This document shows positions 9,001 to 12,000 of a stretch of 64,000 nt of DNA, one piece after another. How positions within the stretch are numbered: the first letter of the stretch is position 1; every line of letters starts with the position of its first letter. Source of the DNA: Escherichia coli (GTDB lineage Bacteria > Pseudomonadota > Gammaproteobacteria > Enterobacterales > Enterobacteriaceae); the NCBI RefSeq assembly GCF_003334335.1, contig NZ_QOWQ01000004.1, one strand, 5' to 3'. Position numbers: made by a program.

Positions 9001-12000
9001 CAGTGGTTTCCGCTACGGCTTCCTCGGTATCAATGATGTTCCGCTGGTCACTACCTTTGGCGTACTGGTGGTCTTTATTGTGGCGTTTTATTTGATCTGT
9101 TGGTCGCTGATCCAACGTGGACGTGGTTTGCGTAGCTAAGGCTATTTCCTCTCCTCTGGATTTGGGGGAGAGGAGTTTTGACGGCTATCACCCTTTATCA
9201 ACAATGGTCAGGGTAGACTGATTTTCGGCTAAGGAGGAAGGCGATGTTAGGTTGGGTAATTACCTGTCACGATGACCGGGCGCAAGAGATACTGGATGCG
9301 CTGGAGAAAAAACATGGGGCACTTCTTCAGTGCCGGGCCGTGAATTTCTGGCGCGGATTAAGCTCTAATATGCTCAGCCGCATGATGTGCGATGCTCTGC
9401 ATGAAGCGGACTCTGGTGAGGGTGTCATCTTCTTAACCGATATAGCCGGAGCGCCACCGTATCGCGTGGCTTCATTATTAAGCCACAAACACTCCCGTTG
9501 CGAAGTGATTTCTGGTGTCACGTTACCGTTAATTGAACAGATGATGGCTTGCCGTGAAACCATGACCAGTTCAGAGTTTCGCGAGCGTATTGTCGAACTG
9601 GGTGCGCCGGAGGTGAGTAGTCTTTGGCACCAACAACAAAAAAATCCGCCTTTCGTCCTCAAACATAATTTGTATGAGTATTAACCCGCGATTCTGATGG
9701 CGCTTTTGCTACAATAAAAGCGTTGTTTCACCCTCGGTTATTTTTTCATGTACAAACAAGCTGTTATTCTCCTGCTGATGCTGTTTACCGCAAGTGTCAG
9801 TGCCGCGTTACCTGCCCGTTATATGCAAACCATCGAAAATGCTGCGGTCTGGGCGCAAATTGGTGACAAGATGGTGACCGTGGGGAATATTCGGGCCGGA
9901 CAAATCATTGCCGTGGAGCCCACTGCCGCAAGTTATTACGCATTTAATTTTGGCTTTGGCAAAGGTTTTATCGATAAAGGTCATCTCGAGCCGGTTCAGG
10001 GGCGACAAAAAGTTGAAGACGGTTTGGGCGACCTCAACAAGCCGCTGAGTAATCAGAACTTAGTTACCTGGAAAGATACGCCGGTCTATAACGCGCCGAG
10101 TGCGGGAAGTGCGCCATTTGGGGTACTGGCGGACAATTTGCGCTACCCGATTTTGCATAAACTGAAAGACAGGTTAAATCAAACCTGGTATCAGATCCGT
10201 ATTGGCGATCGACTGGCCTATATCAGCGCACTGGATGCCCAACCCGATAATGGCCTGTCGGTGCTAACCTATCACCATATTCTGCGCGACGAAGAAAACA
10301 CCCGTTTTCGCCATACTTCGACGACCACATCGGTACGCGCTTTCAATAACCAGATGGCCTGGCTGCGTGACAGGGGATACGCGACACTGAGCATGGTGCA
10401 GCTGGAAGGCTACGTGAAGAATAAGATCAATCTCCCTGCGCGAGCGGTGGTGATTACCTTTGATGATGGCCTCAAGTCGGTGAGCCGCTATGCGTATCCT
10501 GTGTTGAAACAATATGGCATGAAGGCGACGGCGTTTATTGTTACCTCACGCATCAAACGTCACCCGCAGAAGTGGAACCCAAAATCGCTGCAATTTATGA
10601 GCGTTTCTGAGCTTAACGAAATTCGTGATGTATTTGATTTCCAGTCACATACCCATTTTTTGCATCGGGTAGATGGTTATCGCCGACCCATATTACTGAG
10701 CCGTAGTGAGCACAATATTCTGTTTGATTTTGCACGTTCACGCCGCGCTCTGGCGCAATTTAATCCGCATGTCTGGTATCTTTCGTATCCGTTTGGCGGA
10801 TTTAATGACAACGCCGTGAAGGCAGCAAACGATGCCGGATTTCACCTGGCGGTGACAACCATGAAAGGCAAAGTAAAACCGGGGGATAATCCGTTGTTAC
10901 TAAAACGACTTTATATCTTAAGAACGGATTCGCTGGAGACGATGTCGCGGCTGGTGAGTAACCAGCCGCAGGGATAACAATCAAGCAACCTGTACCGGAA
11001 TCGCTTTCGCGGTACGTTTCATTTCATTGTCGCCTTCAAAATAGGCGACGTTGGGTCGCCAGGTGCGAGCTTCTTCATCTGGCATGGTAACGAAGCTGGC
11101 GATGATGACAATATCGCCGACACTGGCGCAGTGGGCCGCCGCACCGTTAACAGAAATAATTCTCGAACCGCGTTCTGCCGCGATGGCATAAGTGGAGAAA
11201 CGCTTGCCGTTGGTGACATTCCAGATATCAATGGCTTCGTTTTCGAGAATACCGGCTGCGTCAAGAAAATCCTGGTCAATGGCGCAAGAACCTTCATAGT
11301 GCAGGTCCGCATGAGTCACTTTCACGCGGTGGAGTTTGCCCTGCAGCATCGTGCGAATCATAACTTCTACCTTTCTACCCTGTCGTTAACGAAGCAGGCG
11401 ATGCCTGCTTTGAGGAAATTCTCACGCAGTATTGCCCGATTTTTGTTTAGTGTCTACTCATCTGACGGCATTTGCGTCAGCAGTTTGCGTACCGCGCCGA
11501 AGCGTGCCATGTATCGCCTGTAACGAATTGATATTTCTCTGAACGCTGCTCGGTAAACAATAAAGAGGTGGCTGACGATAGCGCGCCTTGACTGGATACT
11601 GCCTTCACGCAAAGCCACACGGAAGACAGGGAAGATGGATGCACCGAGTACCACACCGCATGACGCGGTATTTAAACAATTTTTAATGCATGCGGAGACG
11701 GCTCGCGACTTTCTGGAGATACATTTGCCAGTGGAATTACGCGAACTTTGTGACCTCAACACGCTTCATTTAGAGTCGGGGAGTTTCATTGAAGAGAGCC
11801 TGAAAGGACACAGCACGGACGTGCTCTATTCCGTGCAAATGCAGGGCAATCCCGGTTATCTGCATGTTGTGATTGAACACCAAAGCAAGCCGGATAAGAA
11901 AATGGCCTTTCGCATGATGCGTTATTCTATAGCCGCCATGCACCGGCATCTGGAGGCTGACCACGATAAGCTGCCGCTGGTGGTGCCGATACTGTTTTAT

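What the first reader, a model, noticed from the sequence alone, without database searches (positions are those of the whole stretch)
9244..10977. Orphan PTS EIIA(Man)-like gene yadI next to a secreted polysaccharide deacetylase gene yadE
yadI encodes a 146-aa EIIA of the mannose family but no EIIB, EIIC or EIID genes are nearby, so it cannot be a conventional sugar transporter component here. It may be a regulatory phosphocarrier. It sits directly upstream of, and on the same strand as, yadE, a signal-peptide-bearing NodB-type deacetylase. A functional link between the two, such as phosphorylation-dependent control of a cell-envelope modifying enzyme, is speculative.
Basis: inference. Interest (0 to 1): 0.4.

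Follow-up and report, generated by a model that had tools for sequence, protein, structure and literature searches.

The report
Lone PTS gene beside exported deacetylase
These are the already catalogued E. coli genes yadI (a stand-alone sugar-phosphotransferase relay protein) and yadE (an exported sugar de-acetylating enzyme); they are neighbours in nearly all enteric bacteria examined, but the evidence points to separately controlled neighbours rather than a working pair.

Summary
Window 9244-9684 is E. coli yadI, a 146-aa EIIA of the mannose class. Window 9748-10977 is yadE, a signal-peptide-bearing CE4/NodB deacetylase. No mannose-family EIIB, IIC or IID lies in the 64-kb window or within 10 kb in 80 other species.

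The proposed YadI-YadE link is not supported.
- YadI is cytoplasmic and YadE is exported.
- Each gene has its own conserved promoter: a CRP-type site at a fixed position upstream of yadI, and a TGnTACAAT extended -10 in the 63-nt spacer before yadE. A Reg-Seq preprint reports separate active start sites with different regulation.
- The adjacency is part of family-wide synteny (hpt-can-yadGH-yadI-yadE-panD).
- Ten YadE-type contexts outside Enterobacteriaceae have no EIIA. Thorsellia has can-yadG-yadH-yadE with no yadI.
- Three species lost yadE but kept yadI intact.

YadI keeps the phospho-histidine (His9) and Asp66. It also has an invariant, disordered C-terminal tail that AgaF lacks, which suggests an unidentified partner. 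YadE is two SH3b domains plus a PgaB/IcaB/PplD-like domain with all catalytic residues.

Both are known y-genes of unknown function. Read-through co-transcription remains possible. Interest is low to moderate.

The parts
7446..9139 (+). yadG-yadH, a DrrAB/NodIJ-type ABC-2 exporter (ATPase plus permease). Upstream context, not part of the pair.
   Evidence: NCBIfam drrA 239 bits; the permease matches subfamily PRK15066 at 450 bits, above its cut-off. Annotated yadG/yadH. Adjacent to yadI in most of the 80 species.
9146..9179 (+). Intrinsic terminator after yadH: 12-bp G+C-rich stem, 6-nt loop, UUUU.
   Evidence: RNA fold -19.3 kcal/mol, z -2.7. A G+C-rich hairpin of differing sequence occupies this place in every genus aligned.
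9177..9192 (+). CRP-like site TTTGACGGCTATCACC upstream of yadI.
   Evidence: Two mismatches to TGTGAN6TCACA, which is not significant on its own (21 found, 27.5 expected). A site with 2 or fewer mismatches lies 58-60 nt from the yadI ATG in 53 of 80 species. The Reg-Seq preprint reports an activator site predicted to be CRP.
9214..9219 (+). Inferred -10 hexamer of the yadI promoter (TAGACT; TAAACT in most genera). It would place the CRP site centre near -41.5.
   Evidence: Conserved block gCTAAACTAc in the intergenic alignment. The start site is inferred, not measured. The scan tool offers an alternative, TTGACG-16-AACAAT at 9178-9205, whose -10 is not conserved.
9244..9684 (+). yadI: cytoplasmic stand-alone EIIA(Man)-class protein, 146 aa. 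Phospho-acceptor His9 is codon 9268-9270; Asp66 is codon 9439-9441.
   Evidence: Pfam PF03610 E 7e-31. His9 aligns with ManX His10 and Asp66 with ManX Asp67. Both are invariant in the orthologs. The AF2 model has the EIIA(Man) fold, pLDDT 86. dN/dS is 0.03-0.07.
9619..9666 (+). Codons for YadI residues 126-141 (SLWHQQQKNPPFVLKH): the invariant C-terminal extension.
   Evidence: 97% mean conservation over the 79 distinct orthologs plus the window copy, against 67-89% for the rest of the protein. Residues 134-146 are modelled with low confidence, and pLDDT is below 50 for 138-146. AgaF does not share it.
9707..9715 (+). Extended -10 promoter element TGcTACAAT for yadE inside the yadI-yadE spacer.
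   Evidence: TGnTAnnnT is present 27-34 nt upstream of the yadE ATG in 53 of 58 species scored and forms a conserved block in the spacer alignment. The Reg-Seq preprint reports an active yadE start site in many conditions.
9748..10977 (+). yadE: exported protein of 409 aa. Signal peptide residues 1-19 (9748-9804), two SH3b-like beta domains about residues 25-160 (9820-10227), and a CE4 de-N-acetylase domain about residues 165-400 (10240-10947).
   Evidence: Pfam PF01522. The AF2 model has pLDDT 91. Foldseek matches PplD 6dq3 (TM 0.88), IcaB 4wcj (TM 0.85) and the PgaB N-domain; the N-terminal part matches SH3b-bearing NlpC/P60 proteins. H176, D239, D240, H301 and H306 are invariant in 34 sequences down to 25% identity.
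10981..11361 (-). panD, convergent with yadE. Only 3 nt separate the two stop codons.
   Evidence: ORF list and annotation. yadE-panD is listed as a convergent excludon from RNA-seq. No stable hairpin between them.

Best explanation
Two separately promoted genes that are neighbours by descent, not a functional pair.

(1) yadI encodes a cytoplasmic, stand-alone EIIA of the mannose class, seen here only in Enterobacteriaceae. It is transcribed from its own promoter behind the yadH terminator. That promoter carries a conserved CRP-type site, so the gene should come on when glucose is absent and in stationary phase. Inferred mechanism: HPr~P phosphorylates His9, with Asp66 assisting as in ManX. 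The phosphorylation state is then passed on or read out through a partner that binds the invariant, intrinsically disordered C-terminal tail. I favour a regulatory, non-transport output (about 50%) over service as a spare EIIA for a mannose-family EIIB encoded elsewhere (about 30%).

(2) yadE encodes a Sec-exported periplasmic enzyme: two SH3b glycan- or cell-wall-binding domains plus a metal-dependent CE4 de-N-acetylase of the PgaB/IcaB/PplD type, with every catalytic residue intact. It is transcribed from its own extended -10 promoter in the spacer. Inferred action: it removes N-acetyl groups from an envelope glycan. LPS- or lipid A-linked, or peptidoglycan-linked, substrates are the best leads.

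yadI most likely entered between yadH and yadE in an ancestor of the Enterobacteriaceae. Because no conserved terminator follows yadI, some CRP-driven transcripts probably read through into yadE. That would give shared expression but no biochemical coupling.
For: Identity and active sites:
- Pfam and NCBIfam matches.
- His9 and Asp66 align with ManX His10 and Asp67 and are invariant.
- The YadE catalytic set H176, D239, D240, H301, H306 is invariant and aligns with the IcaB motifs.
- Models and fold matches.

Separate compartments: signal peptide on YadE only. The literature calls YadE periplasmic.

Separate promoters:
- Terminator after yadH.
- CRP-like site at a fixed distance in 53 of 80 species.
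- TGnTACAAT present 27-34 nt before the yadE ATG in 53 of 58 species.
- Reg-Seq reports distinct start sites and regulators: CRP-like activator and stationary phase for yadI; repressor near -40 and RpoS for yadE.
- yadI, but not yadE, is in a Salmonella dam-dependent gene set.

Separability:
- In 77 of 80 species the genes are adjacent, but so is the whole hpt-can-yadGH-yadI-yadE-panD-panCB block.
- yadE is deleted with yadI intact in L002, L023 and L072.
- Ten YadE-type contexts outside the family have no EIIA.
- Thorsellia has can-yadG-yadH (75-78% identical) followed directly by yadE.

Purifying selection on both genes: dN/dS 0.03-0.09.

Tail: 97% conserved yet disordered, and absent from AgaF.
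Against: - No conserved terminator lies between yadI and yadE, so co-transcription is not excluded.
- The yadI-yadE spacer is far more stable (53-67 nt in 53 of 55 species) than the yadH-yadI junction, which takes insertions.
- The two genes share a block of elevated divergence among Escherichia species, so they were exchanged together. Simple adjacency, plus the yadE promoter overlapping the yadI 3' end, would explain both of these last two points.
- A Keio yadI deletion raised the colistin IC50 6-20 fold, as did a ptsI deletion. This hints at a PTS-envelope connection, although yadI over-expression had no reciprocal effect.
- No phosphotransfer, partner or YadE substrate has been shown. The insertion scenario rests on a single outgroup genome.
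Confidence: 0.6

Rival explanations
1. One reading: YadI is a phosphocarrier that controls YadE, so the phosphorylation state of the PTS sets the activity of an envelope-modifying deacetylase and the pair works as a module.
For: The genes are adjacent on the same strand in 77 of 80 species, with a tight and stable 53-67 nt spacer. No conserved terminator separates them. They share a divergence block within Escherichia. The yadI deletion gives a colistin phenotype resembling that of a ptsI deletion. YadE has genetic links to LPS and lipid A pathways.
Against: YadI has no export signal and YadE is periplasmic, so direct contact or phosphotransfer is topologically excluded. The genes have separate conserved promoters and different reported regulators. 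YadE-type genes never sit next to an EIIA outside the family. yadI is kept where yadE was lost. The whole neighbourhood is syntenic, so adjacency is not specific to this pair. The colistin effect may be polar on yadE: over-expressing yadI did not reverse it.
Confidence: 0.07
2. YadI is a spare transport EIIA. It takes phosphate from HPr and passes it to a mannose-family EIIB encoded elsewhere (AgaB or AgaV, the ManX IIB domain, or strain-specific systems), much as AgaF serves two permeases.
For: The best family match is AgaF (107 bits), with 33% identity and no gaps over 130 residues. The His9 and Asp66 chemistry is intact. CRP-type control is typical of sugar catabolic genes. E. coli K-12 has agaV and agaBCD but no agaF (compared).
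Against: The score is below the AgaF cut-off of 130. yadI sits at one fixed chromosomal place, remote from any permease, in 80 species whatever their sugar systems. The invariant extra tail and four invariant cysteines are not features of AgaF or ManX. K-12, which has yadI, is annotated with a 'cryptic' galactosamine system. From my own recollection, not tested here, K-12 does not grow on these sugars.
Confidence: 0.25
3. yadGH-yadI-yadE form one envelope module. The ABC-2 exporter YadGH moves an N-acetylated glycolipid or oligosaccharide outward, YadE de-acetylates it in the periplasm, and YadI gates the YadG ATPase according to carbon status, by analogy with EIIA(Glc) inhibiting MalK.
For: The order yadG-yadH-yadI-yadE is conserved. 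Thorsellia has yadG-yadH-yadE directly adjacent. YadGH resembles NodIJ and DrrAB exporters, and YadE is NodB-like. YadI and YadG are both cytoplasmic. The YadI tail needs a conserved partner, and YadG is 91-100% identical across the family.
Against: A terminator and promoter separate yadH from yadI. The yadH-yadI junction tolerates insertions of 0.25 to more than 10 kb. Apart from Thorsellia, YadE-type genes outside the family lie away from any yadGH. No interaction data exist. EIIA(Glc) has a different fold from EIIA(Man).
Confidence: 0.08
4. yadI is a decaying remnant of a lost mannose-family PTS operon and has no function.
For: It has no partner genes nearby. It is the fastest-evolving protein of the block, with a median 73% identity to E. 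coli against 92-94% for YadG, YadH and PanD.
Against: The ORF is intact in 80 of 80 species, at 143-146 aa. dN/dS is 0.03-0.07. The catalytic residues and the tail are invariant. The promoter, CRP site and Shine-Dalgarno sequence are conserved. Expression has been measured.
Confidence: 0.02

Closest known systems
AgaF (EIIA of the N-acetylgalactosamine/galactosamine PTS, E. coli)
   Same: Stand-alone EIIA(Man)-class protein of about 145 aa. It is the best NCBIfam match, with 33% identity and no gaps over 130 residues, the same N-terminal ML..I.T.H motif and the same FLTD.xG.P loop.
   Different: YadI scores below the AgaF cut-off (107 against 130 bits). It is not encoded with IIB/IIC/IID or catabolic genes. 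It has CHDD instead of GHGG around the histidine, four invariant cysteines and an invariant SLWHQQQKNPPFVL tail that AgaF lacks.
IIA domain of ManX (E. coli mannose permease; PDB 1pdo, 1vrc)
   Same: Same fold. His9 and Asp66 align with the phosphorylated His10 and with Asp67, and the AF2 secondary-structure order matches.
   Different: About 28% identity. ManX IIA is fused to IIB through a linker and encoded with manYZ, whereas YadI is free-standing with a conserved tail in the place of the linker.
EIIA(Ntr)/PtsN and the EIIA(Man)-like domain of DhaM (PTS proteins with non-transport outputs)
   Same: These are precedents, from established knowledge and not tested here, for PTS EIIA-type proteins that pass phosphate or information to non-transport targets. 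YadI may work like them.
   Different: PtsN belongs to the fructose/mannitol EIIA fold. DhaM is multidomain and encoded with dhaKL. YadI has no known target, and no family membership is claimed.
PgaB N-terminal domain and IcaB (PNAG de-N-acetylases)
   Same: Best sequence and fold relatives. They share the TFDDG and H-x4-H metal and base motifs, the N-terminal YH strand and the YPFG motif.
   Different: YadE is far below the PgaB and IcaB cut-offs (105 against 322 bits; 98 against 248 bits). It has no lipobox and no C-terminal PgaB domain, is not in a pgaABCD or ica operon, and has two N-terminal SH3b domains instead.
PplD (Streptococcus pyogenes, PDB 6dq3)
   Same: Closest fold match for the catalytic domain: TM 0.88, rmsd 2.3 A, 25% identity.
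   Different: It comes from a Gram-positive organism and has no SH3b tandem. From my recollection of the literature, not checked here, its substrate is a cell-wall polysaccharide linkage unit, which has no known counterpart for YadE.
NodB with NodIJ (rhizobial Nod-factor deacetylase and ABC-2 exporter)
   Same: A CE4 deacetylase gene lies near a NodI/NodJ-like ABC-2 exporter.
   Different: The NodB match is marginal (E 0.005). From established knowledge, NodB is cytoplasmic, while YadE is exported. A terminator, a promoter and yadI lie between yadH and yadE.

Membership tests
PTS EIIA, mannose class (Pfam PF03610; TC 4.A.6 IIA) | Sequence and fold match to the EIIA-man domain over its whole length | tested here: met
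   PF03610 residues 3-116 against model 1-115 of 116, E 7e-31. ManX IIA structures hit at E 2e-7. The AF2 model has four parallel strands with flanking helices, pLDDT 86.
PTS EIIA, mannose class (Pfam PF03610; TC 4.A.6 IIA) | Phosphorylatable histidine at the end of strand 1 (ManX His10) and the nearby aspartate (ManX Asp67) | tested here: met
   His9 and Asp66 align with them and are invariant in the orthologs.
PTS EIIA, mannose class (Pfam PF03610; TC 4.A.6 IIA) | Encoded with, or fused to, IIB, IIC and IID of the same system | tested here: not met
   No ManX-IIB, ManY, ManZ or Aga IIB/IIC/IID homolog in the 64-kb window (best E 0.67), nor within 10 kb in 80 species.
PTS EIIA, mannose class (Pfam PF03610; TC 4.A.6 IIA) | Phosphoryl transfer from HPr~P and on to an EIIB | not testable with these tools
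   Needs a biochemical assay. No report was found in the literature searched.
AgaF equivalog (NCBIfam NF040761) | Score above the curated cut-off of 130 bits | tested here: not met
   106.9 bits, and 33% identity to E. coli AgaF.
CE4 / NodB-homology metal-dependent de-N-acetylases, PgaB/IcaB/PplD subgroup | NodB-homology domain match | tested here: met
   PF01522 E 2e-21. IcaB 4wcj at E 3.5e-18 and PplD at E 3e-14 by sequence. TM 0.85-0.88 by fold.
CE4 / NodB-homology metal-dependent de-N-acetylases, PgaB/IcaB/PplD subgroup | Asp-His-His metal triad, catalytic base Asp (TFDDG; H-x4-H) and catalytic His in the N-terminal YH strand | tested here: met
   D239, D240, H301, H306 and H176 are invariant in 34 sequences down to 25% identity and align with the IcaB motifs. 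The assignment of catalytic roles rests on published PgaB and IcaB work recalled from memory.
CE4 / NodB-homology metal-dependent de-N-acetylases, PgaB/IcaB/PplD subgroup | Demonstrated de-N-acetylase activity and a known substrate | not testable with these tools
   The literature calls YadE a protein of unknown function.
PgaB / IcaB equivalogs (PNAG deacetylases) | Score above the curated cut-off; encoded in a pga or ica operon; PgaB lipoprotein with a C-terminal domain | tested here: not met
   104.6 against 321.9 bits and 98.1 against 248.35 bits. The neighbours are yadI and panD. There is no lipobox and the architecture is SH3b-SH3b-CE4.
yadI-yadE as one operon or functional module | Co-transcription as a single unit | tested here: inconclusive
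   A conserved internal promoter precedes yadE and separate start sites are reported. No conserved terminator follows yadI, however: the alifold consensus is empty and the E. coli hairpin is not conserved.
yadI-yadE as one operon or functional module | Co-occurrence beyond shared synteny | tested here: not met
   No EIIA next to YadE-type genes in 10 contexts outside Enterobacteriaceae. yadE was lost with yadI intact in 3 of 80 species.

The most novel reading that the evidence does not exclude
YadI is a carbon-status sensor of the PTS, specific to Enterobacteriaceae. Its invariant disordered tail docks onto a non-PTS envelope target, for example the YadG ATPase or an LPS or lipid A enzyme. 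In this reading cAMP-CRP and the PEP/pyruvate ratio tune outer-membrane charge and polymyxin susceptibility. YadE, co-expressed by read-through, acts as the periplasmic de-N-acetylase that creates cationic amino sugars on an LPS-linked glycan. The colistin tolerance of yadI and ptsI deletion mutants would be the first phenotype of this circuit.
Probability: 0.1. Interest if true: 0.6.

Novelty: already known. Interest (0 to 1): 0.25.

Why it matters
Both genes belong to the E. coli 'y-ome'. They are present in 5425 of 5426 complete E. coli genomes and across the Enterobacteriaceae sampled, they are under purifying selection, and neither has a known function. The useful result here is to take the pair apart. 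YadE should be studied as a stand-alone periplasmic SH3b-CE4 enzyme family that is widespread in Gammaproteobacteria, with LPS/lipid A and cell-wall leads. YadI should be studied as a CRP-controlled, orphan PTS phosphocarrier specific to Enterobacteriaceae, whose conserved tail offers a concrete handle for finding its partner. If the colistin phenotype of the yadI deletion is real and not polar, it would connect the PTS to polymyxin susceptibility.

Tried and rejected
- **Terminator between yadI and yadE.** The E. coli spacer folds into a 13-bp hairpin (-15.8 kcal/mol, z -2.3). It overlaps the -10 element, its arms are not conserved, and RNAalifold finds no consensus structure in 12 genera. 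I rejected it as a conserved terminator or attenuator.
- **CRP motif enrichment.** The window holds 21 matches with 2 or fewer mismatches, against 27.5 expected, so the yadI site is not significant as a bare match. It is kept only because its position is conserved and because of the Reg-Seq report.
- **Anti-phage defence.** PADLOC gave no hit for YadI, YadE or YadH, and only generic ABC-ATPase hits for YadG. Rejected.
- **A promoter for yadE from the simple scan.** The -35/-10 scan found none in the spacer. The extended -10 element emerged only from the cross-genus alignment.
- **Literature.** The Paradis-Bleau 2014 paper, cited by Reg-Seq for yadE as an 'envelope assembly factor', does not mention yadE in its main text; its supplements were not checked. 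The other yadI mentions were incidental: a synonymous SNP and a sequence comparison.
- **Failed or uninformative calls.** The P0243 contig was too short to show neighbours. The first genome scan and one paper search failed for lack of a free slot.
- **Coverage limit.** Only the best 80 of 141 YadI-bearing species were returned, so the taxonomic limit of yadI is 'as far as seen'.
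Full report
**Observation.** One lies at 9244-9684 (+, 146 aa) and the other at 9748-10977 (+, 409 aa), with 63 nt between them. The 2-kb stretch is present in 5425 of 5426 complete E. coli genomes, where the genes are annotated yadI ('PTS sugar transporter subunit IIA') and yadE ('polysaccharide deacetylase family protein'). The surrounding order is hpt, can(-), yadG, yadH, yadI, yadE, panD(-), rpnC, panC(-), panB(-), then the yad fimbrial genes.

YadI matches Pfam EIIA-man over the whole domain (E 7e-31). YadE matches Polysacc_deac_1 at residues 228-366 (E 2e-21). 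YadE begins with a Sec-type signal peptide ([20 protein letters not shown]) without a lipobox cysteine; YadI has none.

A tblastn of ManX/Y/Z and AgaV/W/E/F/B/C/D against the full 64-kb window found only AgaF hitting yadI (E 3e-20). Everything else had E of 0.67 or worse.

**Anatomy of YadI.**
- His9 and Asp66 align with the phosphorylated His10 and with Asp67 of the ManX IIA domain. Both are invariant in 16 representative orthologs and in the wider set.
- The nearest curated family is AgaF, but YadI scores below its cut-off (107 against 130 bits). It is only 33% identical to E. coli AgaF.
- Features not shared with AgaF or ManX are the CHDD motif around the histidine, four invariant cysteines (C8, C30, C49, C86) and a C-terminal extension, SLWHQQQKNPPFVLxH (residues 126-141).
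- That extension is the best conserved part of the protein: 97% mean column conservation over the 79 distinct orthologs plus the window copy, against 67-89% elsewhere.
- AlphaFold gives a confident EIIA(Man) fold (pLDDT 86). Residues 134-146 are modelled with low confidence, and pLDDT is below 50 for 138-146. An invariant but unstructured tail is what a docking motif for a conserved partner looks like. This is an inference.
- The gene is under purifying selection (dN/dS 0.03-0.07) and is intact in all 80 species sampled, so it is not a remnant.

**Anatomy of YadE.**
- The model is confident (pLDDT 91). It shows a signal helix, an all-beta region at about residues 25-160, and an alpha/beta domain from about residue 165.
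- Foldseek matches the catalytic domain to PplD (6dq3, TM 0.88), IcaB (4wcj, TM 0.85) and the PgaB and BpsB N-domains. It matches the N-terminal part to SH3b-bearing NlpC/P60 proteins such as 3npf, 4r0k and 3h41. Pfam also gives a weak SH3_3 hit.
- In an alignment of 34 full-length relatives down to 25% identity, H176, D239, D240, H301 and H306 are invariant. These align with the YH, TFDDG and H-x4-H motifs of IcaB. The enzyme therefore looks catalytically competent.
- It is far below the PgaB and IcaB equivalog cut-offs, and it lacks the PgaB lipobox, C-terminal domain and operon. It is a distinct SH3b-SH3b-CE4 family.
- Published statements: a periplasmic protein of unknown function with aggravating genetic interactions with LPS and lipid A pathway genes.

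**Transcription signals.**
- Right after yadH there is a 12-bp G+C-rich hairpin followed by UUUU (-19.3 kcal/mol, z -2.7). A hairpin of different sequence occupies the same place in every genus aligned.
- Downstream lies TTTGACGGCTATCACC (9177-9192), which has two mismatches to the CRP consensus. As a bare match this is not significant, since the window holds 21 such matches against 27.5 expected.
- However, a site with 2 or fewer mismatches lies at a fixed 58-60 nt from the yadI ATG in 53 of 80 species.
- With the conserved TAGACT/TAAACT block (9214-9219) as the -10 element, the site centre would fall near -41.5, a class II arrangement. This is my inference and the start site is not measured. 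The scan tool's alternative, TTGACG-16-AACAAT, has a non-conserved -10.
- A strong AGGAGG precedes the yadI ATG.
- In the yadI-yadE spacer the conserved element is GCTTTTGnTACAAT, an extended -10 promoter (TGcTACAAT at 9707-9715). It is present 27-34 nt before the yadE ATG in 53 of 58 species.
- The E. coli spacer hairpin (-15.8 kcal/mol) overlaps this -10 element and is not conserved. RNAalifold finds no consensus structure.
- These readings agree with the Reg-Seq preprint PMC12133099. It reports an active yadI start site with an activator site predicted to be CRP, expression in LB, acetate and galactose, and strong expression in stationary phase. For yadE it reports a separate start site active in many conditions, a repressor site near -40 (which falls on the yadI stop codon) and RpoS-dependent expression.
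- Because nothing conserved terminates yadI transcripts, read-through into yadE remains likely. I would describe the arrangement as two promoters in tandem, not as two insulated units.

**Comparative genomics: is the pair linked?**
- A scan of one genome per species (100,044 species) with YadI-specific peptide patterns found 141 species. The best 80 were returned, and all show Enterobacteriaceae-type synteny.
- In 77 of 80, yadE follows yadI. The whole block hpt-can-yadG-yadH-yadI-yadE-panD-panC-panB is kept as well, so the adjacency is ordinary family-level synteny.
- Three species lost yadE while keeping an intact yadI. Escherichia sp. MOD1-EC7003 has only remnants of yadE. Intestinirhabdus alba has yadI followed directly by panD. 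An Enterobacter asburiae strain has yadI followed by a fimbrial gene.
- Conversely, full-length YadE relatives at 37-49% identity exist in Providencia, Plesiomonas (two paralogs), Thorsellia, Pasteurellaceae, Serratia and several metagenomic lineages. In the 10 distinct contexts recovered, none has an EIIA-man gene nearby. tblastn with YadI, AgaF and ManX is negative.
- Thorsellia is informative. It has can(-), yadG and yadH (75-78% identical to E. coli), followed directly by the YadE homolog with no yadI. This suggests that yadI was inserted between yadH and yadE in the Enterobacteriaceae lineage. The inference rests on one outgroup.
- The yadH-yadI junction takes insertions of 255 to 5829 bp in five species, and more than 10 kb of mobile DNA in Salmonella diarizonae. 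The yadI-yadE spacer, by contrast, stays at 53-67 nt in 53 of 55 species. That stability is expected if the upstream part of the yadE promoter overlaps the yadI 3' end.

**Mechanism.**
- Direct control of YadE by YadI~P is topologically excluded, because one protein is cytoplasmic and the other is exported.
- The best-supported picture is two independent functions.
- YadI: HPr-dependent phosphorylation on His9 is inferred from the conserved residues. Synthesis is under catabolite control. The output goes through a partner that recognises the invariant tail. I give about 50% to a regulatory, non-transport output, about 30% to service as a spare EIIA for a distant mannose-family EIIB, and the remainder to other or unidentified outputs.
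- YadE: a periplasmic, SH3b-anchored, metal-dependent de-N-acetylase of an envelope glycan.
- Leads for the YadE substrate are the LPS and lipid A genetic interactions and the placement of YadE-type genes beside an LpxL-like acyltransferase and PAP2 plus EptA in Plesiomonas, and beside PAP2 and fatty-acid hydroxylase genes in Providencia. There are also neighbours related to peptidoglycan metabolism in two metagenomic lineages.
- The Keio yadI deletion raised the colistin IC50 6-20 fold, like a ptsI deletion, but yadI over-expression had no reciprocal effect. The cassette sits immediately upstream of the yadE promoter region, so a polar effect on yadE is a serious alternative. This is an inference.

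**Comparison with what is known, and novelty.** Both genes are annotated and discussed as y-genes. YadI is recorded in those sources as a putative or predicted PTS enzyme IIA. The finding itself is therefore already known, and the speculative link is not supported. What may be new are some details:
- the conserved promoter architecture;
- the invariant disordered tail of YadI;
- the SH3b-SH3b-CE4 architecture of YadE and the wider distribution of the YadE family without yadI;
- a shared block of elevated divergence, described next.

**Side observation.** Against four other Escherichia species, DNA identity is 88-100% in the flanks but falls to 67-86% exactly over yadI-yadE (9250-10750). Synonymous divergence there is 0.7-1.5, against 0.06-0.5 in yadGH, can and panD, while dN/dS stays low. 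The two genes were evidently replaced together by a divergent allele in one lineage. This shows physical co-inheritance and does not show functional coupling.

**Verdict.**
- Observation: confirmed.
- Interpretation: partly supported. The orphan EIIA reading holds, and the link to YadE does not.
- Novelty: already known.
- Interest: 0.25.

Noticed in passing
window 9250-10750 compared with L003-L006: The yadI-yadE block is only 67-86% identical in DNA to four other Escherichia species, while the flanks are 88-100% identical. dS is 0.7-1.5 against 0.06-0.5 in the flanks, with low dN/dS. This looks like a joint allelic replacement of both genes.
   Followed up: partly
window 9619-9666 (YadI residues 126-141): The C-terminal extension SLWHQQQKNPPFVLxH is 97% conserved over the 79 distinct orthologs plus the window copy, more than the catalytic domain. 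AlphaFold models residues 134-146 with low confidence, and AgaF lacks the extension. C8, C30, C49 and C86 are also invariant.
   Followed up: partly
yadH-yadI junction: window 9140-9243; L008, L010, L013, L028, L070, L072: This junction is an insertion hot spot. Five species carry inserts of 255-5829 bp. Salmonella diarizonae has more than 10 kb of mobile DNA, including an IS110-type transposase, ending about 155 bp upstream of yadI. The content of the other inserts was not examined.
   Followed up: partly
L084 (3279-4574), L088 (8001-9242), L086 (8001-9320): YadE-family genes outside Enterobacteriaceae sit beside lipid A-type genes. In Plesiomonas the neighbours are an LpxL-like acyltransferase, and PAP2 plus EptA. 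In Providencia they are PAP2 and fatty-acid hydroxylase and desaturase genes. This echoes the published genetic links of yadE to LPS and lipid A.
   Followed up: partly
L085 (4948-9332), Thorsellia anophelis-like contig: The order is can(-), yadG, yadH, then the YadE homolog directly, with no yadI. A metallophosphoesterase gene follows.
   Followed up: yes
window 10977-10981: yadE and panD converge with only 3 nt between their stop codons and no hairpin. The pair is listed as a convergent 'excludon' in RNA-seq data.
   Followed up: partly
window 5954-5969: A perfect CRP palindrome, TGTGATCGTCATCACA, lies upstream of hpt, in what the strain WF5-5-T1 annotation shows as the gcd-hpt intergenic gap.
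   Followed up: no
window 9202-10974; proteins P0122, P0123, P0126: Some public gene calls of 586-591 aa span yadI, the spacer and yadE. Both genes are in the same reading frame, but two TAA stops intervene (9682, 9715). These are probably miscalls made with an alternative genetic code.
   Followed up: no
window about 10795-11100; plasmid NZ_CP117007.1 (hit H12): The search found 61 matching places on plasmid replicons. The one example listed carries a fragment of about 300 bp covering the yadE 3' end and panD at 96% identity. One chromosome (strain TB354, hit H1) has an IS1 inserted within the region.
   Followed up: no
window 11635-12537 (rpnC/yadD): rpnC lies between panD and panC in Escherichia and only a few other genera (Pseudocitrobacter, one Salmonella subspecies, one MAG). 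Most Enterobacteriaceae have panD followed directly by panC.
   Followed up: no
window 7446-8372 (yadG): An mBio 2025 paper reports that a plasmid-borne sRNA interacts with YadG and modulates fosfomycin efflux and persistence. Only the abstract was seen.
   Followed up: no
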